Shown one piece after another: positions 1 to 15,036 of a stretch of 15,409 nucleotides of DNA. The notes under the pieces are model-generated. The model was not told where the DNA came from. It did no database searches and was given only the letters and a program-made list of their open reading frames with translations. The first letter of the stretch is position 1; every line of letters starts with the position of its first letter. Source of the DNA: Candidatus Zixiibacteriota bacterium (GTDB lineage: Bacteria; Zixibacteria; MSB-5A5; WJJR01); assembly GCA_036170655.1 (NCBI GenBank), contig JAVHPP010000057.1, positions 1-15,409 on the forward strand. Direction: 5' to 3'. A program made the position numbers and the translations under genes.

Positions 1-764
1 GCACGATACCCGCTCTGAACAAGGGCCGCACTCAGATCGTCAACTTTGTTGCGGCTGATGCAATAAATGATGCCTGACTCTTTACGGTGCCGGTTCACGA
101 TCGCGCGAATTTGGTCCCATCCGTCTCCTGTGCGCTGCTCGGCGCGGTAGATCAGGTTGGGCCGGTCAAATGAGCCAACCAATATGCAGGCGTCGCGCAG
201 TTGCAACTGGCTGGCGATATCGGCACGGACCTGCTCGGTCGCAGTGGCGGTGTACCCATGCACGGCCAGACCCGGAAAGGCCGCCTTCAGAAGTTTGAGC
301 TCGCGGTAGTCTTTGCGGAAATCGTGCCCCCACATGCTGATGCAATGCGCCTCATCGACAGCAAAGAACGAAACCGTGACACTCTTGAGGAAGTCAACGA
401 AGCCGCTGGCGGTCAACCGCTCCGGGGCCACATAAAGAAGTTTGAGTTCGCCATGGCGTATTTGATCGATCGTCGACCGGCGTTCATCGGATGATTGAGT
501 GCTGTTGATGAACGCCGCCGGGACACCGCAGCCGGTCAGCGCATCGACCTGATCCTTCATCAATGAAATCAGCGGCGAGACGACCACCGCCAGTCCGGGC
601 ATGGCCATCGCGGGCGCCTGAAAACACAACGACTTTCCGCCGCCTGTTGGCAGCACAACCACCGAATCCCGCTGCGCCATCACACAGGCCATTGCCTCTT
701 CCTGCAGTGGCCGGAAACTGTCGTATCCCCAGTGTTTCTTCAGCAGACCTTGGAGTTGTTTCAT
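1..764 (-). CDS. recQ: ATP-dependent DNA helicase RecQ, N-terminal part (runs off the window at position 1)
   Basis: Manual minus-strand translation from ATG at 764: MKQLQGLLKKHWGYDSFRPLQEEAM...VVLPTGGGKSLCFQAPA...VVSPLISLMKDQV...YVAPERL...AVDEAHCISMWGHDFR...TATAT...SFDRPNL...SGIIYC. These are RecQ motif 0, Walker A, the DEAH box and motif IV. An in-frame TGA lies 7 codons upstream of the ATG. Not in the ORF track because no stop codon lies in the window. Confidence 0.97.
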   Translation of the reverse strand, partial: MKQLQGLLKKHWGYDSFRPLQEEAMACVMAQRDSVVVLPTGGGKSLCFQAPAMAMPGLAVVVSPLISLMKDQVDALTGCGVPAAFINSTQSSDERRSTIDQIRHGELKLLYVAPERLTASGFVDFLKSVTVSFFAVDEAHCISMWGHDFRKDYRELKLLKAAFPGLAVHGYTATATEQVRADIASQLQLRDACILVGSFDRPNLIYRAEQRTGDGWDQIRAIVNRHRKESGIIYCISRNKVDDLSAALVQSGYR

Positions 765-959
765 CAGATTCGATCCCGCAACTCAACTGCCCGGGCCACC
801 GGCAAACAAGCGCCGTTCGGACAGGCCCGTCAATCACCATTTCAAGGCCAATGAACTTCCCCCAAGAGTCTCAACCAGAGAAATTCCCCCTTGATTTGAC
901 CTGTTTCCACGTTTAATACACCAGTCAGCCCCATAATGGGGCAGCGAAAGGAAGGATAG

Positions 960-1862
960 ATGCGTCACGCAAAGAGATTGATCTGCAGTGCATTTCTGAT
1001 CGCCATGGTGATTGCACTGACTGCTGGAAGGTCGTATGCTGAAGAAGCCAAAGAGGACGCTTGGGATCATGCGTTCAAGGGGCATGAGATGTGGGTGACC
1101 GCTCTGGATTCCGGCCTCGCGGCGTCGGCCAAAGAGAACAAACCTCTCCTGATCGACTTCTACAGCCGCCACTGAGGGTCATGCCGGACTCTGGCAGAGT
1201 CCACGTGGGCCGACCCGAAGTTTCAGGCTTGGGCGAAAGACAAGTTCATCCTCGTTAAAGTCCACACACTCGACCAGCCCGAGATGCGGGATAAATATGG
1301 CATCGCCGGACTACCAACGGTGATCCTCGCCAAACCCGGCGGCGAAGAGATCGACCGCACCATTGGCTACGTCAAAACCGGCAACTTCATCTCCACAGTT
1401 GAGGGTTACCAGAAGGGAATCGGTACCCTGGCGGCCATGAAGCTGGAAGAGAAGACTAAGGGAAAAGATCCTGCATTTCTGTTCTTGCTGGGTGAGAAGT
1501 TTTTCGCCCATAGTCTTTGGGACGCGGCCGAGGCTCGGTTTGAGAAGGTGATCGCCCTCGACCCGGACAACAAGAGCGGCAGCGCTGACAAAGCCATGAT
1601 TAACAGCGCCAGCACATGGGCCAAGAAAGAGGATTATGCCAGAGCCATCAGTTGCTGCCACGATCTGCTCAAGCGCTGGCCTGACAGCCACCTGAATTCT
1701 GACGCGACAGCCTATGTTGGCTGGTATGCCACAAAAGCCGGGAAGTCCGATGAAGCTATTGCCGCGTACACCGAGTACTTGAAGCGCTGGCCGACAGGCG
1801 AGGATGCCGCATTCGCCAAAGAGGAACTGGAGAAGCTGAAGAATCCGGCGAAGAGCAACTGA
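960..1862 (+). CDS. Exported thioredoxin-fold + TPR protein, predicted selenoprotein (TGA 1173-1175 = Sec72, UxxC motif), 300 aa
   Basis: ORFs 960..1175 and 1284..1862 are in the same frame and separated only by TGA. Readthrough gives KPLLIDFYSRH-U-GSC-RTLAESTWADPKFQAWAKDKFILVKVHTLDQPEMRDKYGIAGLPTVILAKPGGEEIDRTIGY, a complete thioredoxin-like domain with the cis-Pro loop (GLPTV). Signal peptide MRHAKR...SYA at the N-terminus, TPR-like helical repeats at the C-terminus, AAGGA RBS before 960. Confidence 0.88.
1176..1216 (+). promoter_or_regulatory. Putative bacterial SECIS element
   Basis: Directly after the TGA. Lower stem GGGTC(1176-1180)/GACCC(1212-1216). Perfect apical stem GGACTCT(1186-1192)/AGAGTCC(1196-1202). 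Loop GGC starts with G and lies 17 nt after the UGA. Confidence 0.78.
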
Positions 1863-1891: not shown

Positions 1892-1929
1892 TCGGCCCAA
1901 CTCTCAATCGAGGTTGGGCCGATTCGTTT
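1892..1929 (+). terminator. Probable intrinsic terminator between convergent genes
   Basis: TCGGCCCAAC(1892-1901)/GTTGGGCCGA(1913-1922) stem followed by TTCGTTT, 30 nt after the stop at 1862. Confidence 0.7.
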
Positions 1930-2047: not shown

Positions 2048-3565
2048 TCAGAACCCGTATAGCTCGCCAAACTTCTTCGTCATATAGTCGATCAGCGGCT
2101 TCGAGCTGAGCGGTTGCCCGGTAACTCGCTCCACCAAGTTCGCGGCGCGGTAACGGCGTCCATGACGATGGATGTTCTGGCGCAACCAGTTCTTCAGCGC
2201 TCCGAATTCGCCTTTGGCAAACTGCCCGCTGAGATCCCCTATATCCTTCTGCGCTTTGGCGAAGAACTGCGCGGCGTACAGGTTTCCGAGCGTGTACGTC
2301 GGGAAATAGCCAATATACCCCGCGCTCCAGTGCACATCCTGGAGGCAACCTTCTTTGTCGTTCGGCGGCGTCAGCCCGAAGTACGATTTGAACTTCTCGC
2401 TCCAAGCGCCGGGAATATCATCAACAGACAGACCACCCGAGAAGAAGGCCCGCTCCATCTCGAAACGCAGCAGGACATGAAGATTGTATGTTGCTTCATC
2501 GGCTTCCACACGGATCAGCGAAGGGCGCACGTCGTTGATCGCCCAATAGAATTCGTCGGCCGACACATTCCCCAGCGCTTCAGGGAATGCCTTCTGCGCT
2601 TTTGGGAAGAAGTGCGTCCAGAACGGGCGCGAACGTCCGACCAGATTCTCCCACATCCGCGATTGCGATTCGTGTATCCCCAGCGAAATCATCTCGCCCA
2701 TTGGTGTGCCGAAGTGCTTCGGGTCCAGCCCCTGGTCATAAATTCCGTGGCCGGCCTCATGCAGAATTCCAAAGAACGCACAGGGGAAATGATGCGCATC
2801 GTAACGGGTCGTGATGCGCACATCCCCCGGCCCGATACCGGTGCAGAACGGATGGGTCGTGATGTCCAGACGCCCCTCTTCGAAGTCAAACCCAATGGCG
2901 GCGGCGGCTTCTTTGCCGAATTTCTCCTGACGGTCGACTGGGTACTCGCGCGTGATGATGCCGACATCGGGGGATCGTCCCGTGCTGCGGATCTTCTCCA
3001 AGAGCGCGACTAGCTCGACACGCAGTGGGGTGAAGATTTTCTCGATTGAAGCGACAGTCGCGCCCGGCTCGAAGGCATCGAGCATGGCGTTGTATGGGTC
3101 GTCCTTGTAGCCGACGGCTTCGGCCTCTTGCTTCTTGAGGTCGATGACCTTCTGCAGCCACGGCTTGAACGCGGCGAAATCCGATTTCGCGCGCGCCTCG
3201 GCCCATTTCCCCTGCGCCAAGGTTGTGACACGGGTTATCTCTTCAACAAGCGACTTGGGGATCTTGACCTGCCGGTCGTAAATCCGTCCGACCTCGCGAA
3301 CCATTACCGCGGCATCGCTGTCGTCGCCATTGGCCATGCCGCTGGATTTCAGTGTGTTCAGAAGTTCGCCGATGCGTGGCTCAACCAGCCGTGAATGCGA
3401 CAATCCTGCCAGAAAGGCCAATTGCTCGGCACGGTGTTCGGCGCCCTTGCGGGGCATGTAAGTTCTTTCATCCCATCCTAATAGCGAGCCGCATGAATCG
3501 ATCATCGAGATCTCGCGGCACTCGCGGACGAGTGCGTTCAGGGCATCTTGCGGGGATTGTGGCAT
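2048..3565 (-). CDS. Carboxypeptidase, family M32 (Taq carboxypeptidase-like)
   Basis: Motifs LLGWDERTYMP, HPFC, DVRITTRY, HEAGH (HEXXH), HESQSR, IRVEADE, GCLQDVHW, GYFPTY. GAGGAG RBS upstream. Confidence 0.97.
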   Translation of the reverse strand: MPQSPQDALNALVRECREISMIDSCGSLLGWDERTYMPRKGAEHRAEQLAFLAGLSHSRLVEPRIGELLNTLKSSGMANGDDSDAAVMVREVGRIYDRQVKIPKSLVEEITRVTTLAQGKWAEARAKSDFAAFKPWLQKVIDLKKQEAEAVGYKDDPYNAMLDAFEPGATVASIEKIFTPLRVELVALLEKIRSTGRSPDVGIITREYPVDRQEKFGKEAAAAIGFDFEEGRLDITTHPFCTGIGPGDVRITTRYDAHHFPCAFFGILHEAGHGIYDQGLDPKHFGTPMGEMISLGIHESQSRMWENLVGRSRPFWTHFFPKAQKAFPEALGNVSADEFYWAINDVRPSLIRVEADEATYNLHVLLRFEMERAFFSGGLSVDDIPGAWSEKFKSYFGLTPPNDKEGCLQDVHWSAGYIGYFPTYTLGNLYAAQFFAKAQKDIGDLSGQFAKGEFGALKNWLRQNIHRHGRRYRAANLVERVTGQPLSSKPLIDYMTKKFGELYGF

Positions 3566-3861: not shown

Positions 3862-4758
3862 ATGCAGCTTGAAATCGATGCGGTCAGCAAGGAATACCGG
3901 GGCAACGTCCGGGCTCTGCGCGATTTCTGCCTGACCCTTCGCCCCGGAGTGTTGGGCCTCCTCGGACCAAACGGCGCCGGCAAATCGACGTTGATGCGCA
4001 TTCTGGCCACGGTCACGAAGCCATCAAGCGGTACTGTCCGATGGAATGGAACCGACATCGTGCATGCACCAGATGCCTTGCGAGCCGATCTGGGGTACCT
4101 GCCTCAGGACTTTGGCGTCTATCCCAACCTGACGGCCTCGGAGTTTCTCGAATACCTGGCGGCGATCCGCGGGGTGGATGGCGCCACAGCCAAGAGACGG
4201 ATCGGGGAGCTTCTGGATCTGGTCGGTCTCACCACATGGCGGGACCGTCCCTTGGGAAAGTATTCCGGCGGGATGAAGCAGCGCGTTGGCATCGCGCAGG
4301 CCCTGCTGAACAATCCCAAGCTGTTGATTGTCGATGAGCCAACCGTCGGGCTGGACCCGGAAGAGCGCGTGCGGTTCCGCAACTTGCTGGCTGACCTGTC
4401 CGGCGAACGCATTGTCATCCTCTCCACGCATATTGTCTCCGATGTCGAAGCCAGCGCGACCGAGATCGCGATTATGTCCGGGGGGCGCTTGCTGATCCAT
4501 GCGGCGCCGGAGGAACTGCTGCGAGCGGTTGAGGGAAAGGTCTGGGAATGGATTATCGCCAGCACTTCGCTCCCGGCGGTGAAAGCGCAGTACCTGATCA
4601 GCGGCACCATCCGACGGACCGACGGGGTCCATGTGCGCATCGTCAGCGCGGTGTCGCCGGGATCGGAGGCGCAGCCGTCATCCCCAACTCTGGAGGATGC
4701 CTACCTGCATTTCATTGCCGGCAGCAGAAACGCCAATGAACAGACAACCGCCGCTTAG
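3862..4758 (+). CDS. ABC transporter ATP-binding protein (exporter type)
   Basis: Walker A GPNGAGKS, signature YSGGMKQR, Walker B LIVDEPT, H-loop STH, C-terminal PTLEDAYL. Confidence 0.97.
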   Translation: MQLEIDAVSKEYRGNVRALRDFCLTLRPGVLGLLGPNGAGKSTLMRILATVTKPSSGTVRWNGTDIVHAPDALRADLGYLPQDFGVYPNLTASEFLEYLAAIRGVDGATAKRRIGELLDLVGLTTWRDRPLGKYSGGMKQRVGIAQALLNNPKLLIVDEPTVGLDPEERVRFRNLLADLSGERIVILSTHIVSDVEASATEIAIMSGGRLLIHAAPEELLRAVEGKVWEWIIASTSLPAVKAQYLISGTIRRTDGVHVRIVSAVSPGSEAQPSSPTLEDAYLHFIAGSRNANEQTTAA

Positions 4759-4760
4759 CC

Positions 4761-6344
4761 ATGTTGCGTCCCCTCTACCATCTGATGCGCGCCGATTTCC
4801 TGGAGCGGGTGCGGCGTGTGAGTTTCCTCATCACGCTCGGCCTGTCCGTGTACCTGGCTTACCTGTTCGTGCCTCCGAACCACACGAGCTACGCCACGTT
4901 GGAGATGGCCAACCATCGCGGCATCTACAACTCGGCTTGGATCGGTATGCTGGTCGCGCTGATGACGGGGCAGTTCATCTCGTTCGCCGGGTTTTATCTG
5001 GTCAAGAACGCCATCCGCCGGGACCGTGACACCGGCGTCGGCCAGATCATTGCGGCGACGCCGACCACACGTTTTCAGTACGCGGCCGGGAAATGGCTAA
5101 GCAATCTGATGGTGCTGGCGACGATGGTCGGAGTGATGGCCATCTCAGCCATTGTCATGCAATTGGTGCGCGGGGAAGACTCGCACATCGATCTGCTGGT
5201 GCTCCTCGCGCCATTCCTGTTCTTCGCGCTCCCGGTCATGGCCCTGACAGCGGCTGTGGCCGTGCTGTTCGAAACAGTTCCGTTTCTAACCGGCGGGCTG
5301 GGAAATGTGATCTACTTCTTTCTATGGATGGCTGGCATCTCCGGGGAGATGTTCGTGGCATTTGACCTTTTTGGCATCAAGAGCGCCACACCTTCGATGC
5401 TCCGAGCGTGCGAGACTGCCTTCCCGGATTACCACGCCGCTGAAGACAAGTTCAGCATGGGGTTCACCATCCTCGGCGATGGCAAGACCTGGTCGCTCTC
5501 GACGTTCCACTGGAACGGACTTGACTGGACAACAGCGATCATACTCAATCGCCTGCTCCTCATTGGTCTCGCGCTCGGGATCACAGCCATCGCCTCACGG
5601 TTGTTTGATCGCTTTGATCAATCCCGAGAGCAGACCACGGGGCGACGACAACGGAACGGAGCGGAACAAATGACGGACGCCCGGCCCCGCATGTGGATTT
5701 GGCTGGGGGTATCCCGCCTGGGCGGGTTGGCGTGGTTGCGACGGATCTTCGGCCCCATCGTCACAGCAGAGGTACGCCTGATGTTCAAGGGAGTCTCGCG
5801 CTGGTGGTACATGGTGGCTGCCGGGCTCTTCATCGCCGAGATTGCCAGCCCTCTCAAAGTGGGTCGCGAAATCTTGCTGCCGATCGCCTGGCTCTGGCCT
5901 GTACTGTTATGGTCATCAATGGGAATCCGCGAAACCAGTTCCGGCACTGATCAGTTGATCTTCTCCAGTCCACGGTCGTTGCACCGCCAGTTCCCCGCCC
6001 TCTGGATTGCGGGGATCATCGTTTCACTCTTGACAGGCGGAGGGATCTTGGTCCGCCTGGCCATCGTCGGCGCGTGGAGTCCCCTGTTGGCGATCGCGAT
6101 TGGAGCGGCATTCATTCCTTCACTGGCGCTCTGCCTGGGAGTCTGGAGTGGCACCGGCAAACTCTTCGAAGTCCTCTATGTTCTCCTCTGGTACGTTGGT
6201 CTGATCAACCACGTGCCTGCGTTGGATTATGCCGGAACCACGTCTGCCGCAGCCCAAGCGGGCGCTCACTGGACATTTCTGACCACCACGGTTGTCTTGC
6301 TGACGACAGCGTATGTCGGACGACGCCGACAGATGCAGCAGTGA
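4761..6344 (+). CDS. ABC transporter permease (multi-pass membrane protein)
   Basis: Starts 2 nt after the ATPase stop. Many hydrophobic segments, with two ABC-2-like cytoplasmic loop motifs (RDRDTGVGQIIAATP and RETSSGTDQLIFSSP). Confidence 0.88.
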   Translation: MLRPLYHLMRADFLERVRRVSFLITLGLSVYLAYLFVPPNHTSYATLEMANHRGIYNSAWIGMLVALMTGQFISFAGFYLVKNAIRRDRDTGVGQIIAATPTTRFQYAAGKWLSNLMVLATMVGVMAISAIVMQLVRGEDSHIDLLVLLAPFLFFALPVMALTAAVAVLFETVPFLTGGLGNVIYFFLWMAGISGEMFVAFDLFGIKSATPSMLRACETAFPDYHAAEDKFSMGFTILGDGKTWSLSTFHWNGLDWTTAIILNRLLLIGLALGITAIASRLFDRFDQSREQTTGRRQRNGAEQMTDARPRMWIWLGVSRLGGLAWLRRIFGPIVTAEVRLMFKGVSRWWYMVAAGLFIAEIASPLKVGREILLPIAWLWPVLLWSSMGIRETSSGTDQLIFSSPRSLHRQFPALWIAGIIVSLLTGGGILVRLAIVGAWSPLLAIAIGAAFIPSLALCLGVWSGTGKLFEVLYVLLWYVGLINHVPALDYAGTTSAAAQAGAHWTFLTTTVVLLTTAYVGRRRQMQQ

Positions 6345-6409: not shown

Positions 6410-6437
6410 TTGACAAAAATCCGTTTTGACCGATATT
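6410..6437 (+). promoter_or_regulatory. Possible sigma70 promoter for the peptidase
   Basis: TTGACA (6410-6415), 16-nt spacer, GATATT (6432-6437), within the intergenic gap. Confidence 0.4.
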
Positions 6438-6518
6438 GCTGGAGACGCCTCCGGCTCCGCACGGAGTCGGGGACGATCAATCTCGCCCGCACATGAAGCG
6501 CATTCTCCGGCAGACCAC

Positions 6519-8537
6519 ATGAATACAAACCGGCTTGGCCACATATCTTTGATCGCCTGCATGATGGCGTTCGTAGTTATGGCCTCGGTTTCCCCAAATG
6601 CGCTACCCGCCGGGCGGAGTTCCCCTCTCGCTGTTTTGGAAATGGCCGTTACTCCAAGTCGGGCCAAACATTTTCCCGGTATCGCCGCGACCGCAGCGTT
6701 TGATTCTCTACAGGCACGGTCGCCACGGCGCTGGGATGTGCGCTGGAATGAGACAACAGGCCTCCCGAAGATGCTTTCCGGCGGCGAATCCGCTGCCTTG
6801 ACCACTGCGCCCACGGCAGCAGCAAGCATGTTCCTTTCCGACAATGCCGCCTTATTCGGCTTGGAGAGCGGCCCCGGACGCCTGCCAGGCGCCGTCGCCA
6901 TGATCCGAGAACAGGAACTCCCCGTGGCCACCAAGATCACCTATGAGCAGACCGTCGGCGGATTGCCCGTTGCCGATGCGCAGATCAGTATCATCGTCAA
7001 CTCCAAAGGATCGGTCACGCATGTAACGTCGACTGCCCAAGTCATCGCGTCGGTGGACACCGTTCCCACGCTGACAGTGAACGACGCCATCACCCGTGCA
7101 ACCGCTTCACTGGGCGGGCTGCGGCTGGTCCATGACGATCAGTCACCCCGGCTCTGCATTTTTCCGGCGGCGTCGCCCCGCCTTGCCTATGAGATCTATC
7201 TGACAGTCGATGCCGGATACGAGGAACCCTGGCGGCTGGTCATCGACGCGCACGATGGCTCAATCCTCTGGCGCCGCCGTCTGGTCGCCGACCAGTCACA
7301 GGTCTTCGACCCGAACCCTGTCGCGACCCTGAATGACGAAACGCTCCACGATCAGAACGACGCGAACGCAGCGGTCCCGCTGACCGCCTATTTCCCCGTG
7401 ACCCTCGCGCACCTCGATCCGCCAGTGGGAGGCCTTTATCAGCTCAAGGGGTTGTATGTCTGGATGCAGAACATCGAATCGCCGGCAAACTTGCCACCGA
7501 CATCCGAGGATGGCACGTTCCCCTATCTTCGTTTCGATAACGGGTTTGAAGAGGTAATGGTCTACTACACGATCGACCAGAATCAGACCTACATCCAGGG
7601 TCTCGGTTTCAACAATATCGACAATCGCCAGCATCGTTTCGACGCTCACGGTTTCAACGGCGAGGACAATTCGCACTATGTTGGCTCGCCCATCGGCTCG
7701 GGGTACATCACCTATGGCGATGGCGGCGTCGACGACGCCGAAGACGCCGACATCATCCTGCATGAGTATGGCCACTCCATTCAGGACAACTCCACGCATG
7801 GAATCTATTTCGGTTACGCCAGCAATGGCTACGGCGACGAAACCGGCGCGATGGGGGAGGGATTTGGCGACTACTGGGCGGCGTCCGGCGGCTACGACTC
7901 TTCGGTTGCACATTCATTTCCACTGGCCTACGTGGGCGAATGGGACGCGAAGGGGTATTCTCCCGGTGGGGACCCCTATCTCCGCGTGGTGAACACGGCC
8001 AAGGTGTACCCAGCCGACATGGTCAACGAGATTCACTCCGACGGCGAGATCTGGTCGGCAACGCTGTGGGACATCTTTCAGCAACTGGGACGGACCGTCA
8101 CGGACCGCATCGTGCTCTACTCGCACTTTCTGGTTCCGGTCAATCCGGATTTTGCTGACGGAGCCAATGCCCTTCTGGCCGCCGACGCCGCACTCTACCC
8201 TGCCGCCACGATGTCAGGAGCATCAACAGCCGGGGTCCATCGGGCGCAGATATGCTCTGTCTTGTCGGCACGCGGCATCCTGACCTGCCCGCCAGCCTGT
8301 GATTGCACGCTGCATGGCGATCCCAACGGCGACTCGTCGATCAACATTTTAGACATCGCGTTCACGATCGACGAGGCCTTCAGTAATGGCCAGAAGGCGC
8401 CGCAAGACCCGCTCTGTCCGCATCTGTCGCGCTCCGACTACAACTGCGACCGTCAGATCGATGTCCTCGACATCATCTATGTGATCGACTTCGTATTCAG
8501 CGGGGGACCGGCCCCCTGCAATCCCTGCGCGATGTAG
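6519..8537 (+). CDS. Secreted M36/M4 (fungalysin/thermolysin-like) metallopeptidase with FTP/PepSY-like propeptide and C-terminal dockerin-like domain
   Basis: ATG 6519 is followed by a signal peptide, so it is preferred over TTG 6426. Propeptide motifs YEQTVGGLPV and WRLVIDAHDGSIL. Catalytic motifs HEYGH, GAMGEGFGD and EIHSDGEIWS. C-terminal duplicated Ca-loops GDPNGDSSINILDI / SDYNCDRQIDVLDI. Confidence 0.9.
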   Translation: MNTNRLGHISLIACMMAFVVMASVSPNALPAGRSSPLAVLEMAVTPSRAKHFPGIAATAAFDSLQARSPRRWDVRWNETTGLPKMLSGGESAALTTAPTAAASMFLSDNAALFGLESGPGRLPGAVAMIREQELPVATKITYEQTVGGLPVADAQISIIVNSKGSVTHVTSTAQVIASVDTVPTLTVNDAITRATASLGGLRLVHDDQSPRLCIFPAASPRLAYEIYLTVDAGYEEPWRLVIDAHDGSILWRRRLVADQSQVFDPNPVATLNDETLHDQNDANAAVPLTAYFPVTLAHLDPPVGGLYQLKGLYVWMQNIESPANLPPTSEDGTFPYLRFDNGFEEVMVYYTIDQNQTYIQGLGFNNIDNRQHRFDAHGFNGEDNSHYVGSPIGSGYITYGDGGVDDAEDADIILHEYGHSIQDNSTHGIYFGYASNGYGDETGAMGEGFGDYWAASGGYDSSVAHSFPLAYVGEWDAKGYSPGGDPYLRVVNTAKVYPADMVNEIHSDGEIWSATLWDIFQQLGRTVTDRIVLYSHFLVPVNPDFADGANALLAADAALYPAATMSGASTAGVHRAQICSVLSARGILTCPPACDCTLHGDPNGDSSINILDIAFTIDEAFSNGQKAPQDPLCPHLSRSDYNCDRQIDVLDIIYVIDFVFSGGPAPCNPCAM

Positions 8538-8919: not shown

Positions 8920-9180
8920 CTACGCGCGTCCAGTCTTCCGTGACTTCCGGAGACGCCGAATCGTTTCCTTGGCTGATCCCAAAGGCCCATGGAAGCGACC
9001 CGCCTTAATGTCCGCCAGACCCTCCGCCAGGCGCTTCTCAATCAGTTCCTTGGGGGTCAGGACGAGCTTATCACCATCCAGCTCGACTTCCAAGTAATCG
9101 CCGGGTGTCAGTCTGAGCTGGTCATAGACTTTCTTGGGGATCACGATCTGCCGACTCACGCCGATCTTTACTGCAGCCAC
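8920..9180 (-). CDS. AbrB/MazE/SpoVT-family DNA-binding protein (antitoxin-like), 86 aa
   Basis: GTG start at 9180 with GGAGG RBS at 9187-9191. VKIGVSRQIVIPKKVYDQLRLTPGDYLEVELDGDKLVLTP is the AbrB swapped-hairpin pattern. The tail EGLADIKAGRFHGP resembles antitoxin C-termini. Confidence 0.9.
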   Translation of the reverse strand: MAAVKIGVSRQIVIPKKVYDQLRLTPGDYLEVELDGDKLVLTPKELIEKRLAEGLADIKAGRFHGPLGSAKETIRRLRKSRKTGRA

Positions 9181-9217
9181 GAAATGCCTCCGTTTCCATA
9201 AATTGTAGAACCATATT

Positions 9218-9235
9218 TCCGTATAATTATACGGA
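9218..9235. promoter_or_regulatory. 18-bp perfect palindrome containing TATAAT on both strands (promoter -10 / operator)
   Basis: TCCGTATAATTATACGGA, in an AT-rich patch 38 nt upstream of the AbrB-family start. Confidence 0.7.
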
Positions 9236-9283
9236 GAACAGAGGAAAACGACAGGCATTTTCTGCGAGCGTTGCGGGGGTAGC

Positions 9284-9385
9284 GAATTCCCTCAACACCC
9301 ACAAGGGGCTATGCTACAGATGCAAAAACCCCGACGCGCACTCGTGTAGCATAGGCCCTCGCGGCCGTAGATCGTGGGCACCGGG
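9284..9385 (+). repeat. ~100-bp direct repeat, copy B
   Basis: GAATTCCCTCAACACCCACAAGGGGCTATGCTACAGATGCAAAAACCCCG...ATAGGCCCTCGCGGCCGTAGATCGTGGGCACCGGG matches 8792-8890. Confidence 0.9.
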
Positions 9386-9553
9386 CGCGATCGCCAGCGA
9401 CTGCCAGTATCCTCTGTCAGTGATGTCTTGAAAGAGACCGAACCGGCGAAGCAGTGCCCGGCCTTCTTAACCTGTCAACACCATTGTTGGCTCGCCGAAC
9501 GGATTTCATTAGTATTGAAGCGGGACGCTGGCCACACGGAAGGGCAAATGTAG

Positions 9554-12500
9554 ATGGACCCAGTCCAAGAATACCTGAAAGAACTACGCGACATCCGCTC
9601 CACGGGCGCCGGTGTGCCGGAGACATCTTACTATCCGGCCCTCTCCAACCTGCTCAACGAAGTCGGGAAGACCCTTAAACCCAGAGTCCGCTGCGTCATG
9701 CAGCTTGCCAACCGGGGCGCGGGAAATCCCGATGGCGGTCTGTTCACTCCCGACCAGCTTCAGCAGGTCTCCGACACGGATCCGCTGACCGGGCAGATTC
9801 CTGCACGTGGTGTTATCGAGATCAAGCCGATATCTGATGACACTTGGATTACAGCCGGGAGTCATCAGGTCACCAAGTACTGGAGACGTTATGGCCTTGT
9901 CCTCGTGACGAACTACCGTGACTTCCTGATTATTGGCACGGACGACGATGGCAAACCGAAGAAGTTTGAATCGTTCCGTTTGACTGGAAGCGAGAAGGAA
10001 TTCTGGGATCTTGCGGGCCATCCCGGTCGCACACGGAGCGGGGTGGCCAGCCGGTTTATGGAATTCCTCAAGCGTGTCATCCTGCATCGTGCTCCCTTAT
10101 CGAAGCCCGAAGACGTCGCGTGGTTCCTGGCATCCTACGCGCGCGATGCCAGATCGCGAATCGAGGACGTCGATGTGTCGACTCTCGATGCGTTCCGCGC
10201 AGCGCTCGAAGAGGCGCTCGGGATGAAATTCGAGGGGCCTGACGGGGAGAATCTCTTTCGCTCGTCGTTCATTCAGACCTTGTTCTACGGTGTGTTCTCG
10301 GCCTGGGTGCTCTGGGCGCACGAACCCGACCAGACGGACAAGTCGGCCAATTTCGATTGGAAACGGGCGGGATGGTGGCTCCATGTGCCGATGATCCGTG
10401 TCTTGTACGAGGAAGTCTCCGGTCCCCTGAAGCTGCGATCGCTTGATCTTGTTGAACCGTTGGACTGGACTGCCGAAGTGCTCAACCGTGTAGATCGCGA
10501 CACATTCTTCGCAACTTTCGACCAGGGTGAAGCCGTTCAATACTTCTACGAGCCATTTCTTCAGCAATTCGATCCCAACCTGCGCAAACGGTACGGAGTC
10601 TGGTACACGCCGCCGGAGATCGTGAAATACATGGTTGCTCGGGTTGACAGGGTGCTCCGCGAGGAACTGGGAATCGGGGATGGACTGGCCGACAGCCGTG
10701 TTCTCGTGCTCGATCCCTGCTGCGGGACCGGGGCTTATCTTGTCGAGGTATTGCGGAAGATTGCCGAGACGCTCAAAAGCAAGGGCGGTGATGCGCTCGC
10801 ACCGCAGGACATCAAGCACGCCGCGATGGAACGGGTGTTCGGATTTGAGATCATGCCAGCACCGTTTGTCGTGGCACATCTGCAGGTGGGGCTGCTGCTG
10901 CAACGACTCGGTGCACCACTATCTCACGATGCTGCGGAGCGTGCTGCCGTCTACCTCACTAACGCGCTTACAGACTGGGAGCCGCCGAAGGACCCGAAGA
11001 ATAGGATTCTTCTGCCGCTGCCGGAACTGCAGCAGGAGCGCGACGCAGCAGGTCGCATCAAGCGTGACACTCCGATCCTCGTTGTTCTCGGTAATCCCCC
11101 TTACAACGCGTTCGCAGGCACGGCGGCGAGTGACGAGGAACGCATGCTGATCGAACCGTACAAGCAAGATCTGAATAAACCGGTCAAGGAAGGCGGCTGG
11201 GGGATCAAGAAATTTAACCTCGACGATCTTTACATTCGATTCTTTCGACTTGCCGAACGCCGCATTGCAGAACTGTCAAAGCGAGGCGTCGTTTGCTTCA
11301 TCTCGAATGGATCATGGGTGAGCGAGCCATCGTTCGTTGTGCTGCGCGAGCACTTACTGGCCTCCTTTGACAAGTTCTGGATCGAGAACCTTCATGGGAA
11401 TCGCAAGATATCCGAGTATGCGCCCGACGGCCGCACGAGTGAGACTATCTTCGCAATCTCCGGTTTTTCACCGGGCATCCAGCAGGGCGTGGCGACGTCA
11501 CTTTGGGTGAAGAGCGGAAAGATGTCTCGCAGCGCGACTGTTCTTTTCCGCGACGATATCGACGCCGCGCGCGCAGGCGAGCGGCGCGAGCAGCTCCTCC
11601 GCAGCCTCGAAGCCCTGCAATTCGACGCCAAGTATCGCCGGGCCGTACCTATGCGTGACAATCGTCACTCGTTCCGACCATCTACGGTTGCTGAGCACTA
11701 CATGGAGTGGCCGAAGGTGGTCGACCTGTGTGCCGTGCCCCCGAGCAACGGTCTGATGGAAAAGCGTGGGGGGGCTCTCATCGACATTGATCGCGACGCG
11801 CTCGCCACGCGCATGAGGGCGTATTTTGATCCCAAGCTGGATTGGAATGAGTACAAGGCACTCGGATACGGGCTCAATGACAAACAGGCAGGGTTCGACC
11901 CGCCCAAGGCACGGAGCAAGGCAGTTGCATCCGAGAGATTCAGCCTGGATCGAATTGTACGGTACGCGGTCAGGCCGTTTGACATGCGTTGGTGTTACTA
12001 CACTCCAGTCAGTCCGGTATGGAATCGTGCCCGCCCTTCCCTTTGGGCGCAGTACTGGAAGGGGAATCGGTTCTTGATGACTCGTCCCGCAGGGGTGGCA
12101 TCACCCGAGGGTATCCCGTTCTTCTTTACTTCCGTGCTTGGGGATAACGATTTCCTGAGGGGGCATGCGTACTACTTCCCCTATCAACTTCGAATGGCAG
12201 AAGGCGCGGGACACGCTGATGGTCAGGATCTTTTCGCCAAGGCCAAGGGGGAATCGAAGAGGCGCAAATCTGTCAGCAGTCACGGGCTGCACGCGGCAAG
12301 GTATTTGGGAGGTGTGGGTATGGATTTCAACGATGCCGCACCGGTCTGGAATCACGTCTTAGCTGTAGGGTTCTCGCCGGCTTACCTTACCGAGAACATG
12401 CAGGGCATTCGTCAGGATTGGCCGCGCATTCCGCTGCCCGCATCGAAAAAGCAACTGCTCCACTCTGCCAGTCTTGGGAGTGCGTTGGCACTGCTGCTCG

Positions 12501-13060
12501 ACACTGAATCCGAAGTCAAAGGAGTGACCCAAGGCACGATTCGGCCCGAGCTGTCGGGTGTCGGCGTGATCGCACGAGCCGGGGGCGGGGCGCTTAGCCC
12601 AACTAAGGGTGATCTCGACACCACTGTTGGTTGGGGGCACCGTGGCAAAGACGGTGCCGTCATGCCGGGCAAAGGCCGCCTTGTCGAGCGTGATTATTCG
12701 AAAGAGGAGCTTGAAGCGCTAAGAGTTGGCGCCAAGGCCCTGGGAGTGTCCTTCGAACAGGCGCTGGCTCAGTGGGGAGGCACAACCTGCGACGTGTACC
12801 TGAACGATGTCGCTTACTGGAAGAACGTGCCCAAGAACGTGTGGGAGTATGTCATCGGCGGATATCAGGTGGTCAAGAAGTGGCTCAGCTACCGCGAGTG
12901 CAGCATCCTCGGGCGCGGTCTGACAAAGGACGAAGCGCGCGAAGTGACCAACATGTGCCGGCGAATCGCCGCCATCCTCTTGATGCAGCCGGCGCTTGAC
13001 CAGAACTATCAGGCCGTCAAGGAATCCTGTTTTGACTGGTCCACGGTCAAGGAGAACTGA
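9554..13060 (+). CDS. Single-chain restriction-modification protein: PD-(D/E)xK-like nuclease + N6-adenine methyltransferase + type ISP-like C-terminal specificity domain (helicase-less, type IIG-like)
   Basis: N-terminal PDGGLF...VIEIK...QVTKY...LVTNYRDF. MTase motifs YFYEPFL, GVWYTPPEIV, LDPCCGTG (motif I), GFEIMP, GNPPY (motif IV), DDLYIRF. C-terminal RYAVRPFDMRW, DWPRIPLP, VWEYVIGGYQVVKKWLSYR. No Walker A or DEAD motif. Confidence 0.9.
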   Translation: MDPVQEYLKELRDIRSTGAGVPETSYYPALSNLLNEVGKTLKPRVRCVMQLANRGAGNPDGGLFTPDQLQQVSDTDPLTGQIPARGVIEIKPISDDTWITAGSHQVTKYWRRYGLVLVTNYRDFLIIGTDDDGKPKKFESFRLTGSEKEFWDLAGHPGRTRSGVASRFMEFLKRVILHRAPLSKPEDVAWFLASYARDARSRIEDVDVSTLDAFRAALEEALGMKFEGPDGENLFRSSFIQTLFYGVFSAWVLWAHEPDQTDKSANFDWKRAGWWLHVPMIRVLYEEVSGPLKLRSLDLVEPLDWTAEVLNRVDRDTFFATFDQGEAVQYFYEPFLQQFDPNLRKRYGVWYTPPEIVKYMVARVDRVLREELGIGDGLADSRVLVLDPCCGTGAYLVEVLRKIAETLKSKGGDALAPQDIKHAAMERVFGFEIMPAPFVVAHLQVGLLLQRLGAPLSHDAAERAAVYLTNALTDWEPPKDPKNRILLPLPELQQERDAAGRIKRDTPILVVLGNPPYNAFAGTAASDEERMLIEPYKQDLNKPVKEGGWGIKKFNLDDLYIRFFRLAERRIAELSKRGVVCFISNGSWVSEPSFVVLREHLLASFDKFWIENLHGNRKISEYAPDGRTSETIFAISGFSPGIQQGVATSLWVKSGKMSRSATVLFRDDIDAARAGERREQLLRSLEALQFDAKYRRAVPMRDNRHSFRPSTVAEHYMEWPKVVDLCAVPPSNGLMEKRGGALIDIDRDALATRMRAYFDPKLDWNEYKALGYGLNDKQAGFDPPKARSKAVASERFSLDRIVRYAVRPFDMRWCYYTPVSPVWNRARPSLWAQYWKGNRFLMTRPAGVASPEGIPFFFTSVLGDNDFLRGHAYYFPYQLRMAEGAGHADGQDLFAKAKGESKRRKSVSSHGLHAARYLGGVGMDFNDAAPVWNHVLAVGFSPAYLTENMQGIRQDWPRIPLPASKKQLLHSASLGSALALLLDTESEVKGVTQGTIRPELSGVGVIARAGGGALSPTKGDLDTTVGWGHRGKDGAVMPGKGRLVERDYSKEELEALRVGAKALGVSFEQALAQWGGTTCDVYLNDVAYWKNVPKNVWEYVIGGYQVVKKWLSYRECSILGRGLTKDEAREVTNMCRRIAAILLMQPALDQNYQAVKESCFDWSTVKEN

Positions 13061-13174
13061 GGAACCATGCGCACTATTCCGGTCGATTCCAATACCAGAG
13101 TTCCGTCCCGCTCTCGGTGGCCAAGCAGAGACGGAGGTGGGAGGCGGTAAATGCCATCCAGCGAAGCGTGTCTT

Positions 13175-13203
13175 AGCTTGGAGTCCGAACGTGTCCGATT
13201 TCT
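13175..13203 (+). repeat. 29-bp direct repeat, copy 1 (upstream of kinase)
   Basis: AGCTTGGAGTCCGAACGTGTCCGATTTCT; 27/29 identical to 15141-15169. Confidence 0.85.
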
Positions 13204-13293
13204 TTGACGACTTGCAGCCCATGGCCATCACGAACCACGGATGCGCCGACGAGGCAAGCTCTGTGGTTCGCGGTCCTCAGCGATCGCTCGGAG

Positions 13294-15036
13294 ATGACGG
13301 TGATCTCGATCGGTGACAGGTTGGACGGCAAGTATCTGATTACGCGCAGACTCGGGGGTGGCGGGTTCGGCGAGGTGTTTCTGGCCACGGATGAGGTGAT
13401 CCCCAATCGCCAGGTCGCAATAAAGGTGCTTTCCCAACCACGTCCGGGGGATCACAGCGACCTCGTGTGGGAGATGCAGACACTGGCGCAGTTCAACCAT
13501 CCGCACATCGTGACGTTCTACCACCATTTCAACGCCGAGGAACGGTTGTACCTAGTGATGGAGTTCTGCCCGGCCGGAAGTTTGAATGATCTGCTGGTGG
13601 CAGGGGGGCCTTACTGCAAGGAACAGGTGTTCGCGTGGGGTCTGGAACTGTGCGAGACCCTCGCTTTCGTCCATGGAAAGGGAATAGTCCACCACGACAT
13701 CAAGCCCCAGAACATTCTCTTCGCCGGGGACGGGACGATTAAGCTCGGAGACTTCGGCGTGGCCAACCGCATCGCAGGCACCCGCTTGTATCTGCCACCG
13801 GAAATGCTGCTCGGCGAACGCGTGTCTCGGATTGACCCAAGGGTGGACGTATACGCACTCGGTCTGACGTTGCTCGAAGCGATAAATGGCCACCATCCCT
13901 TCGAGCATCTCCAGCCGGACGAGGCCATCAGGGCCCGCATCAAGCACGATTTCGTCCCGACCGAACTGCCCCGCTGGGTACAGGAAGTCCTGCTCAAGGC
14001 AACTCACCCCACTCCCGAACTGCGATTCCAGTCGGCGGACGATTTTTGCGATGCCATCCGCGGTCAACACGTGCCCTACGTATTCGATGGTAACCGGATC
14101 AGGGCCGACGATCTGGCCAGGAGGGCCGAGTCTTCGATCGCACGCAGGAAGTGGAAAACGGCCGAGAAGCTCGCATCCTATGCACTTGAGTTGAGCCCCG
14201 ATTCCGTCGCCGCATTGCTGGCTGCGGGCCGTTGCCAGCTGCTGATTCGCCGCATTGATCGGGCCAGCGAATACCTGTCCAAGGCAGTATCCATTAGTCC
14301 GCGTACGCCGGTTCAGAAGGAACTCGGATGGATAAACCTTGAGCAAGGCCGGATCCCGACAGCAATCTCGCTGCTGACCGACCATTTACAGAGGAATGCG
14401 TCCGACTACGAAGCCTATAACCTGCTCCTAAAGTGCTTCTACTTGACCGATCGCTACGAAGCGGGAGAATCTCTTGCAAACATTGTCGTTGACGCGAAAG
14501 CGCCGAATGACTGCTTCCGCAACAACCGGCTCCTGTGCCGTTTACTGAACGGAGATAGCGCCCCTGTCGAACTGGCAACGCCCACTTCCCGTGAGGCTGC
14601 CAATCCCTTCATCGTCTACAACCTCGCGGTGGCGAATGAAAGGCCGCGGTCCTGGGGAAGCGATACGCCGGTGTCGCTGAAATCGAAGCTGCTGTTCGAA
14701 GAGTACCGATTCGGGACCGCTGTCCGCACTGGAAGAAAGAATACGCTCGCAGTGTACACGTCCGGCAATGTCCGTGACGACTTTGGTCGGTCGATTGTGG
14801 CGATTGGCTCCCTGAGCGTGAACGATCTCGTTGTCAACGACAAGAGCGTGAGTCGTCGCCACTGCGTCATCGTGAACTATCCTGACGATGTGTGGCTCTA
14901 TGACCTCGGAAGCACGGTCGGCACTGTGATCGACGGGCAGCGCCTCGTTGGTCGAACACTCTTGGACAGTGTGCACGAAGTGGCGGTCGGACGGGTCCGC
15001 CTGCGCATTGCTGCGAGAAACGACATATTTCTCTAA
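13294..15036 (+). CDS. Hanks-type Ser/Thr protein kinase with TPR repeats and C-terminal FHA domain
   Basis: Kinase motifs GGGGFGEV, VAIK, HHDIKPQN, DFG, GTRLYLPPE, DVYALG. Central TPR-like helices. FHA pattern IGS...NDLVV...VSRRHC...DLGSTVGT. Start is ATG 13294 or GTG 13300; GGAG at 13290-13293 fits the GTG better. Confidence 0.93.
   Translation: MTVISIGDRLDGKYLITRRLGGGGFGEVFLATDEVIPNRQVAIKVLSQPRPGDHSDLVWEMQTLAQFNHPHIVTFYHHFNAEERLYLVMEFCPAGSLNDLLVAGGPYCKEQVFAWGLELCETLAFVHGKGIVHHDIKPQNILFAGDGTIKLGDFGVANRIAGTRLYLPPEMLLGERVSRIDPRVDVYALGLTLLEAINGHHPFEHLQPDEAIRARIKHDFVPTELPRWVQEVLLKATHPTPELRFQSADDFCDAIRGQHVPYVFDGNRIRADDLARRAESSIARRKWKTAEKLASYALELSPDSVAALLAAGRCQLLIRRIDRASEYLSKAVSISPRTPVQKELGWINLEQGRIPTAISLLTDHLQRNASDYEAYNLLLKCFYLTDRYEAGESLANIVVDAKAPNDCFRNNRLLCRLLNGDSAPVELATPTSREAANPFIVYNLAVANERPRSWGSDTPVSLKSKLLFEEYRFGTAVRTGRKNTLAVYTSGNVRDDFGRSIVAIGSLSVNDLVVNDKSVSRRHCVIVNYPDDVWLYDLGSTVGTVIDGQRLVGRTLLDSVHEVAVGRVRLRIAARNDIFL

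What the first reader, a model, noticed from the sequence alone, without database searches (positions are those of the whole stretch)
960..1862. Hidden selenoprotein: thioredoxin-TPR gene split by an in-frame UGA at a UxxC active site
Seen: two ORFs in the same frame are joined by an open 36-codon linker after TGA 1173-1175. The TGA falls where the first Cys of a thioredoxin CxxC belongs (LLIDFYSRH-TGA-GSC, compare the usual xxDFyaxWCxxC). The rest of the fold, including the helix, FILVKV strand and GLPTV cis-Pro loop, continues without decay. Established: UGA encodes Sec in bacteria carrying selA/selB/selC/selD, often as UxxC in Trx folds, and gene callers commonly split such genes. Inference: this is one 300-aa selenoprotein, possibly of a poorly described Trx+TPR family. 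H instead of W before the Sec is also unusual.
Basis: partly seen in the sequence, partly recalled or inferred. Interest (0 to 1): 0.88.

Follow-up and report, generated by a model that had tools for sequence, protein, structure and literature searches.

The report
Exported thioredoxin-TPR selenoprotein of Zixibacteria
A gene that databases list as two fragments is one exported redox protein that uses the rare amino acid selenocysteine at its active site, and its family has switched between selenium and sulfur several times in a little-studied bacterial phylum.

Summary
Confirmed. 960-1862(+) is one 300-aa gene: signal peptide, thioredoxin domain with U72-G-S-C75, then TPR helices. The TGA sits at the same column in 14 of 14 closest homologues and 31 of 51 homologous loci; 18 have Cys there. 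A hairpin at 1186-1202 fits the bacterial SECIS model, is synonymously frozen (0.94 vs mean 0.51), and has the same register as the hairpin after the genome's own selD UGA. tRNA-Sec, selD and part of selA are present. selB is not assembled; in 3 relatives it directly follows selA. Named relatives are mostly Ca. Zixiibacteriota. The family occurs in 194 of 201 phylum genomes. Of 51 loci, 33 lie beside gcvPA/gcvPB; this genome's gcv-linked copy has Cys, and the window gene is a stand-alone, always-Sec paralogue. A quick tree needs 6-7 Sec/Cys switches. Likely role (inferred): envelope disulfide reductase/isomerase with a TPR client grip, recharged by DsbD. No Trx-TPR entry appears in a 2026 catalogue of 119 families, but homology-built databases may already hold it under a generic name.

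The parts
949..955 (+). Purine-rich ribosome-binding-site-like stretch 4 nt before ATG 960
   Evidence: Read directly from the sequence; function inferred
960..1862 (+). Whole gene, 300 aa with Sec at residue 72
960..1040 (+). Signal-peptide-like N-terminus, residues 1-27: basic n-region, hydrophobic core, likely cleavage after A27
   Evidence: Kyte-Doolittle 11-residue mean up to 2.86, with 3 K/R in the first 10 residues. A similar Met-initiated stretch was found in 13 of the 14 close-clade loci. No SignalP-type tool was available, so this is a manual call.
1062..1094 (+). N-terminal motif W35...F39-x-GHEMW45, specific to the stand-alone clade
   Evidence: W35 and G41-W45 invariant in 11 of 11 aligned close homologues; GHEM is not present in the 16 distant rows of alignment A1
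1092..1412 (+). Thioredoxin domain (about residues 45-151), including cis-Pro P119 (1314-1316)
   Evidence: Pfam PF13899, PF00085, PF13098 over cut-off; AlphaFold2 model pLDDT 94.9; Foldseek thioredoxin hits at about 2.2-2.8 A rmsd
1173..1175 (+). In-frame UGA read as selenocysteine 72, the nucleophilic position of UxxC
1182..1184 (+). Resolving Cys75
   Evidence: Invariant in 29 of 29 rows of alignment A1
1186..1202 (+). Bacterial SECIS hairpin: 7-bp stem, GGC loop at 1193-1195, 17 nt after the UGA, -8.6 kcal/mol
   Evidence: model criteria from PMC13188914 section 5
1470..1841 (+). TPR region: three helix pairs plus a capping helix (about residues 171-294)
   Evidence: Pfam TPR_16/TPR_2/TPR_6; helices in the model
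1892..1922 (.). Strong hairpin between this gene and the convergent M32 carboxypeptidase gene, terminator-like
   Evidence: -27.5 kcal/mol, z -5.3, 0 of 200 shuffles as low. The terminator consensus scan did not list it.

Best explanation
A genuine selenoprotein gene. SUPPORTED BY TOOL RESULTS: UGA72 aligns with the nucleophilic Cys of a thioredoxin CxxC, is followed by a conserved SECIS, and the lineage has the Sec machinery. INFERRED FROM ESTABLISHED KNOWLEDGE: SelB with Sec-tRNA binds the hairpin 17 nt downstream and inserts Sec. The signal peptide exports the protein to the periplasm. INFERRED MECHANISM: the Sec72 selenolate attacks disulfides or oxidised cysteines of envelope proteins, Cys75 resolves the mixed bond, and the resulting Se-S bridge is re-reduced by the genome's DsbD-type membrane electron carrier. 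The TPR helices hold or select the client, so it works like an exported, reducing counterpart of the chaperedoxin CnoX. It is a stand-alone paralogue of a phylum-wide Trx-TPR gene whose other copy here, between gcvPA and gcvPB, uses Cys. Odds: Sec incorporation about 0.97; export about 0.9; DsbD-fed reductase/isomerase role about 0.55.
For: TGA at the column in 14 of 14 close loci. Among 51 loci from 44 genomes: 31 TGA, 18 Cys, 1 Gly, 1 Ser. The own-genome Cys paralogue is 36% identical over 256 aa with C opposite U. Synonymous identity is 0.94 in codons 74-81, against mean 0.51, sd 0.07, max 0.73 in 242 windows elsewhere. All 70 of 70 stem cells pair, and both stem variants keep pairing while changing the amino acid: one G-U and one compensatory U-A to A-U. 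GG at +18/+19 after the codon occurs in 31 of 31 Sec genes and 12 of 18 Cys genes. selD has its own in-frame UGA with a hairpin whose GGN loop starts at the same +18. tRNA-Sec is present. selA matches in 56 of 61 genomes. selB is over cut-off in 3 of 5 relatives, each just downstream of selA. The model is confident (pLDDT 94.9), and its top Foldseek hits are YbbN/CnoX. The best thioredoxin-domain sequence hits in PDB are DsbD C-terminal domains. A 642-aa DsbD-like protein with DsbD_N, DsbD_TM and Trx domains is in the genome. No DsbB or VKOR was found in the assembly.
Against: selB is not in this assembly and only about 130 of 455 selA profile positions are. No RNA or protein evidence exists. 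Longer windows over the SECIS do not fold better than shuffles (z -0.25 to -1.03), and the 17-nt z of -3.2 was picked after the fact. Covariation is weak (43 of 500 shuffles as high). The strict hairpin signature is not enriched after TGA genome-wide (11 of 85,429, against 19 of 90,541 after TGC), and the other 9 TGA hits do not look like read-through genes. In 7 of the 17 Sec genes outside the close clade my perfect-stem search found no hairpin. The YbbN match is by parts only (TM 0.33, rmsd 23 A). The DsbD-like protein scores 301 bits, under NCBIfam's 330 cut-off. No conserved neighbour points to a substrate. Missing DsbB and VKOR may be assembly gaps.
Confidence: 0.55

Rival explanations
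1. UGA is a true stop: a pseudogene, or two separate small proteins.
For: Databases hold only the pieces: 71 aa (P0185) and 192 aa (P0002), and the close homologues as 170-223-aa fragments. selB is absent from this assembly.
Against: The same TGA is kept in 14 genomes at 40-97% identity with no other stop inside the aligned region. Codons are frozen just downstream. The split would cut the thioredoxin fold at its catalytic residue.
Confidence: 0.02
2. The organism reads UGA as Trp or Gly genome-wide (codes 4 or 25).
For: One homologue has Gly at the column (L041).
Against: 490 of 849 stop-to-stop frames of 400 codons or more end in TGA. RF2 is present at 520 bits. The only UCA-anticodon tRNA found is tRNA-Sec. 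The column aligns with Cys, not Trp or Gly.
Confidence: 0.005
3. A selenoprotein, but a DsbA-like oxidase that introduces disulfides into exported proteins.
For: Exported thioredoxin fold. The xx dipeptide differs from the xW of the Cys forms.
Against: No DsbB or VKOR re-oxidant was found (fragmented assembly). No DsbA-family hit appears. The cis-Pro loop is L/T-P rather than DsbA's V-P (recalled rule). The low potential of Sec favours reduction (established knowledge).
Confidence: 0.12
4. A selenoprotein that acts as a redox-sensing TPR adaptor of one envelope machine (BamD/CpoB-like) or one dedicated client, not as a general disulfide catalyst.
For: The TPR part hits CpoB/YbgF and BamD models below cut-off. 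Several gcv-linked homologues have lipobox-like signals (by eye). Single copies with SxxS or GxxC persist. The clade-specific GHEMW motif is invariant.
Against: (U/C)xxC is kept in 49 of 51 loci. No envelope-machine gene is a conserved neighbour.
Confidence: 0.17
5. The family serves glycine cleavage or an associated lipoyl/selenium cycle, as its place in the gcv operon suggests.
For: 33 of 51 loci have gcvPA and/or gcvPB in their flanks. In this genome the paralogue lies between them.
Against: Glycine cleavage is cytoplasmic (established knowledge) and these proteins carry export signals. The window's own clade has no gcv gene in the flanks held: 14 of 14 loci at about 1.5 kb, 12 of 12 at up to 5 kb.
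Confidence: 0.1

Closest known systems
Bacterial UxxC thioredoxin-fold selenoproteins: Trx (PF00085) and 'thiol:disulfide interchange protein' (PF13098, WP_011366075.1) in Table 1 of PMC13188914
   Same: UxxC at the start of the active-site helix; PF00085 and PF13098 over cut-off; SECIS right after the UGA; Cys homologues exist.
   Different: Fused C-terminal TPR region and export signal; no table entry names TPR. The representative sequence of the PF13098 entry could not be fetched, so its architecture was not compared.
CnoX/YbbN chaperedoxin (PDB 3QOU; review PMC8129009)
   Same: N-terminal thioredoxin fused to C-terminal TPR; top three Foldseek hits; Caulobacter CnoX has an active CxxC.
   Different: CnoX works with cytoplasmic GroEL/DnaK and has two five-helix TPR subdomains. 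This protein has a signal peptide, about seven TPR helices, Sec, 13-17% identity and TM about 0.3 to the solved structures.
DsbD C-terminal domain / Thioredoxin_7 (SoxW/DsbH-like) periplasmic thioredoxins
   Same: Best Pfam domain PF13899; best thioredoxin-domain PDB sequence hits are DsbD C-terminal domains.
   Different: Free-standing, with no DsbD membrane domain; DsbD and DsbH models far below cut-off.
Trx7/PDZ (seleno)protein NF041199 and TsoB NF045694
   Same: Thioredoxin_7-type domain in a selenoprotein.
   Different: 22.5 vs 300 bits and 48.9 vs 805 bits cut-off; their motifs are CxxU and UxxxxU; other architectures.

Membership tests
Bacterial selenoprotein gene | In-frame UGA aligned to a catalytic Cys in homologues | tested here: met
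   31 TGA and 18 Cys of 51 loci at one column; paralogue alignment
Bacterial selenoprotein gene | [quoted passage not shown] 2 legend) | tested here: met
   Loop GGC, 7 bp, 17 nt, -8.6 kcal/mol; conservation
Bacterial selenoprotein gene | tRNA-Sec, selA and selD in the genome | tested here: met
   selA only its 5' part, cut by a contig end
Bacterial selenoprotein gene | selB in the genome | tested here: inconclusive
   Not assembled. It follows selA in G003, G004 and G006, so it would fall beyond the contig end here.
Bacterial selenoprotein gene | Se incorporated in the expressed protein | not testable with these tools
   Needs proteomics or 75Se labelling
Thioredoxin fold | Trx fold with (U/C)xxC at a helix start and a cis-Pro loop | tested here: met
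   the model carries Cys in place of Sec
CnoX/YbbN chaperedoxin | Trx domain fused to a C-terminal TPR domain | tested here: met
CnoX/YbbN chaperedoxin | Cytoplasmic (no export signal), with a ten-helix TPR saddle and whole-chain similarity to 3QOU | tested here: not met
   Signal-peptide-like N-terminus; seven TPR helices; TM 0.33, rmsd 23 A
CnoX/YbbN chaperedoxin | Holdase activity and hand-over to GroEL | not testable with these tools
   Needs biochemistry
UGSC-containing selenoprotein (NF041046) | Match to the family model and a conserved UGSC | tested here: not met
   No hit; UGSC in only 8 of 14 close loci, so the motif match is coincidental
Any curated NCBIfam (seleno)protein family | Score over the model's cut-off | tested here: not met
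   0 of 14 matched families over cut-off; 0 of 13 for the Trx domain alone
Thiol:disulfide interchange selenoprotein (PF13098, UxxC; WP_011366075.1) | Same domain, motif and overall architecture | tested here: inconclusive
   Domain and motif agree; the representative sequence could not be retrieved

The most novel reading that the evidence does not exclude
A near-universal core gene of a whole uncultured phylum is an uncatalogued exported seleno-chaperedoxin whose active site has toggled between Sec and Cys at least six times in organisms that keep the Sec machinery. The Sec state goes with loss of the Trp before the nucleophile. In this family a duplication fixed a division of labour: a Cys copy in the gcv operon and a stand-alone Sec copy with its own GHEMW extension, possibly a selenium-dependent and a selenium-independent route for envelope protein repair.
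Probability: 0.35. Interest if true: 0.65.

Novelty: new variant of a known kind. Interest (0 to 1): 0.48.

Why it matters
It corrects a systematic annotation error. Of 150 best cluster representatives, 21 start just after the active site, and several close fragments are named BamD or TPR protein, which hides a redox enzyme. It adds an exported Trx-TPR architecture to bacterial selenoproteomes and shows Sec use across a phylum (selA in 56 of 61 genomes) that the paper searches did not link to selenoproteins. Because Sec and Cys orthologues alternate between sister lineages and coexist as paralogues in one genome, the family is a natural test set for why Sec is chosen over Cys, and for whether Trp loss next to the nucleophile is a Sec adaptation. 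The chemistry itself (UxxC thioredoxin) is well known, which caps the interest.

Tried and rejected
Single-sequence AlphaFold gave a poor model (pLDDT 53.5) and was replaced by the alignment-based one. The search for related loci with the single protein found nothing; alignment A1 was too diverse for it; A2 worked. A loose genome-wide scan for UGA + hairpin gave 155 candidate frames, mostly noise by eye; only selD and this gene were recognisable. The best-looking other candidate (C3, UAFCC) showed no gene-like reading when printed and was dropped, as were 9 strict-signature sites. No RNA holder was listed among sequencing runs. Runs X6-X10 held small shares and are not used for habitat. UGSC-family, Trx7/PDZ, TsoB, DsbH and BamD assignments were rejected. 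The promoter scan found nothing on the gene's strand. The careful tree did not finish; quick trees were used. In one search row L061 was mis-parsed as Ser and was corrected to Cys. In one search, 8 of 51 rows had no motif parse and were parsed. Three look-ups of earlier scan findings returned nothing. No language-model atlas comparison was obtained, so remote look-alike clusters remain unchecked. No complex prediction was run.

Full report
OBSERVATION. The frame from ATG 960 to TGA 1860-1862 has one internal stop, TGA 1173-1175, at codon 72. Table 11 splits it into 71-aa and 192-aa ORFs 36 codons apart. Read through, it is a 300-aa protein with Thioredoxin_7 (45-123), Thioredoxin and Thioredoxin_2 over their Pfam cut-offs, and TPR matches at 172-285. 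None of 14 NCBIfam families matched reaches its cut-off. Contigs from runs X2, X4 (same study as the possible source) and X5 (a second study) cover the codon with no variant listed there.

HOMOLOGUES. A search of 61 genomes (own + 60 relatives) returned the 30 best loci. I fetched 20 more from the listed full-length matches, a hand-picked part of those left, and took the own-genome paralogue from the laid genome: 51 loci, 44 genomes, 14 families. At the column of residue 72 there are 31 TGA, 18 Cys, 1 Gly and 1 Ser. The 14 closest loci, from 14 of the 15 genomes of the window's family (none found in G008, 88% complete), all have TGA and no other stop inside the aligned region, and form one clade (SH-aLRT 100). 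A profile of 29 of them matches 194 of 201 genomes of the phylum at E 1e-40 or better; codons were not parsed for that set. Of 12 named loci from GTDB, 6 are labelled Ca. Zixiibacteriota, 3 'Ignavibacteria', 2 'bacterium' and 1 'Acidobacteriota'. I take the lineage to be Zixibacteria on that basis and do not count these loci as independent of the G handles. A full-length Cys form is named from candidate division KSB1.

SEC MACHINERY AND CODE. The genome has tRNA-Sec (71.9 bits, cut-off 47). Its selD scores 331 bits and has its own in-frame TGA in a UxxK motif. The 5' part of selA lies next to tRNA-Sec and runs off contig C90. selB was not found. In G003, G004 and G006 selB lies directly downstream of selA, so a gap explains its absence (inference). 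The assembly also lacks tRNA-Asp and tRNA-Ile despite its 100% marker score. selA matches in 56 of 61 genomes. UGA is otherwise a stop: 490 of 849 long frames end in it and RF2 is present.

SECIS. 1186-1202 folds as a 7-bp stem with a GGC loop 17 nt after the UGA, -8.6 kcal/mol. This meets all four criteria of the bacterial model as given in PMC13188914 section 5. In the 14 close loci, synonymous identity over codons 74-81 is 0.94, against mean 0.51, sd 0.07, max 0.73 in 242 windows elsewhere. The only two stem variants keep pairing while changing the amino acid. The hairpin after the selD UGA has its GGN loop at the same +18. GG at +18/+19 holds in 31 of 31 Sec genes and 12 of 18 Cys genes (17 of 17 outside the close clade; Fisher p 0.019, but kin are not independent). 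Against: longer windows fold no better than shuffles; covariation reaches only 43 of 500 shuffles; the strict signature is no commoner after TGA than after TGC (11 of 85,429 vs 19 of 90,541); and 7 of 17 distant Sec genes show no perfect stem of 4 bp or more in my search. The case therefore rests on conservation, not on folding energy.

ANATOMY. Residues 1-27 look like a cleavable signal peptide (manual call). AlphaFold2 on the 29-row alignment, with Cys for Sec, gives pLDDT 94.9 and pTM 0.89: a thioredoxin domain with residue 72 just before the active-site helix, two linker helices, three TPR helix pairs and a cap. Foldseek ranks YbbN/CnoX first but only by parts (TM 0.33, rmsd 23 A), then thioredoxins and consensus TPRs. 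By sequence the best thioredoxin-domain hits are DsbD C-terminal domains.

CONTEXT AND EVOLUTION. The window gene stands alone, divergent from a DEAD/RecQ-like helicase gene and convergent with an M32 carboxypeptidase gene, with a strong hairpin between them. The close clade shares no constant neighbour. By contrast 33 of 51 loci have gcvPA and/or gcvPB in their flanks. All 18 Cys forms are gcv-linked and all 18 unlinked loci are Sec (flanks about 1.5-3 kb). The own-genome paralogue (36% identical, WCKWC) lies between gcvPA and gcvPB. In the window's family the gcv copy is Cys in 7 of 7 loci examined; in the sister family it is Sec in 3 of 3. With the active-site and SECIS-encoded residues masked, a quick ML tree needs 7 Sec/Cys changes, 6 forced by branches with SH-aLRT of 95 or more (no bootstrap, midpoint root, so direction is not established). 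The unmasked tree, with one row mis-parsed, gave 6 and 4. One Cys gene (L067) keeps the same hairpin as its Sec sister (L068), which suggests a Sec-to-Cys reversion like those described in PMC1794560 section 9, where such reversions were found in only four families. Trp precedes the nucleophile in 3 of 31 Sec and 14 of 18 Cys forms.

MECHANISM. Supported by tool results: Sec/Cys alignment, SECIS, machinery, fold. Inferred: export; Sec72 attack and Cys75 resolution (standard thioredoxin chemistry, established knowledge); re-reduction by the genome's DsbD-like protein (DsbD_N + DsbD_TM + Trx); client binding by the TPR region, by analogy with CnoX (PMC8129009). No DsbB or VKOR was found, which weakly favours a reducing role. 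The substrate is unknown. My best guess is general repair or isomerisation of envelope protein disulfides (0.55), with a dedicated adaptor (0.17), an oxidase (0.12) and a gcv-linked role (0.10) as rivals.

WHAT IS KNOWN. Eight paper searches gave no description of a Trx-TPR selenoprotein or of Zixibacteria selenoproteins in their listings; the library lacks most subscription papers. What I saw of each paper: PMC13188914, abstract, passages, section 5 and parts 1-2 of 3 of section 7 including all of Table 1 (119 families; 0 occurrences of TPR). PMC9312934, passages. PMC1794560, passages and section 9. PMC8129009, parts 1-2 of 3. PMC12013277, PMC13745706 and PMC8318568, term searches only. PMC13326102 (BSepDB), passages, section 7 and a supplement search. 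Against novelty: BSepDB's input lists Zixibacteria genomes (7 rows in a file cut when stored) and it collects any TGA that aligns to a known Sec by tblastn, so these genes may already be filed there as generic thioredoxin-like entries. Its family table and website could not be seen. Public protein sets hold the gene split: 21 of 150 best representatives begin after the active site, against 54 full-length (49 with CxxC) and 75 others; close fragments are named BamD or TPR protein.

VERDICT. Real selenoprotein (about 0.97). It works like an exported thioredoxin/chaperedoxin but is not a member of CnoX or of any curated NCBIfam family tested. New variant of a known kind; interest 0.48.

Noticed in passing
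G000:C163:5627-9461 (L086:1628-5462, - strand): The Cys paralogue (294 aa, WCKWC, signal-peptide-like start) sits between gcvPA and gcvPB; 33 of 51 homologous loci are gcv-linked. An exported protein inside a cytoplasmic glycine-cleavage operon is unexplained.
   Followed up: partly
G000:C40:21378-22436 (-), L017: selD is itself a selenoprotein (UxxK) with a hairpin in the same +18 register as the window gene's SECIS.
   Followed up: yes
L059 (G043) and L035 (G043): In G043 the gcv-linked copy has lost both catalytic residues (SxxS) while an unlinked copy carries Sec; L041 (G056) has GxxC.
   Followed up: no
L067 (G022) vs L068 (G046): A Cys gene keeps the same 17-nt hairpin as its Sec sister, a likely remnant SECIS.
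   Followed up: partly
L002 (G000:C90:1-2228): tRNA-Sec lies just upstream of selA and downstream of a deacetylase-like and a glycosyltransferase-like ORF that resemble bacillithiol synthesis genes (resemblance recalled, not scanned).
   Followed up: no
window 8920-15036: AbrB/MazE-like ORF with no toxin partner identified (8920-9258 -), a 1168-aa N6-methyltransferase with a Type ISP C-terminal domain (9554-13060 +), and a Ser/Thr kinase-TPR-FHA protein (13204-15036 +): possibly a defence island.
   Followed up: no
window 6426-8537 (+): M36 fungalysin-family peptidase with an FTP propeptide and a Cys-rich, dockerin-like C-terminal tail (tail label recalled, not scanned).
   Followed up: no
window 3-764 (-), 2048-3565 (-), 3862-6344 (+): DEAD/RecQ-like helicase cut by the contig start, M32 carboxypeptidase, and an ABC ATPase + ABC-2 permease pair; ordinary.
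   Followed up: partly
G000 whole assembly: Scored 100% complete, yet no tRNA-Asp, tRNA-Ile or selB was found and EF-Tu is cut at contig ends; absence claims for this genome are weak.
   Followed up: partly
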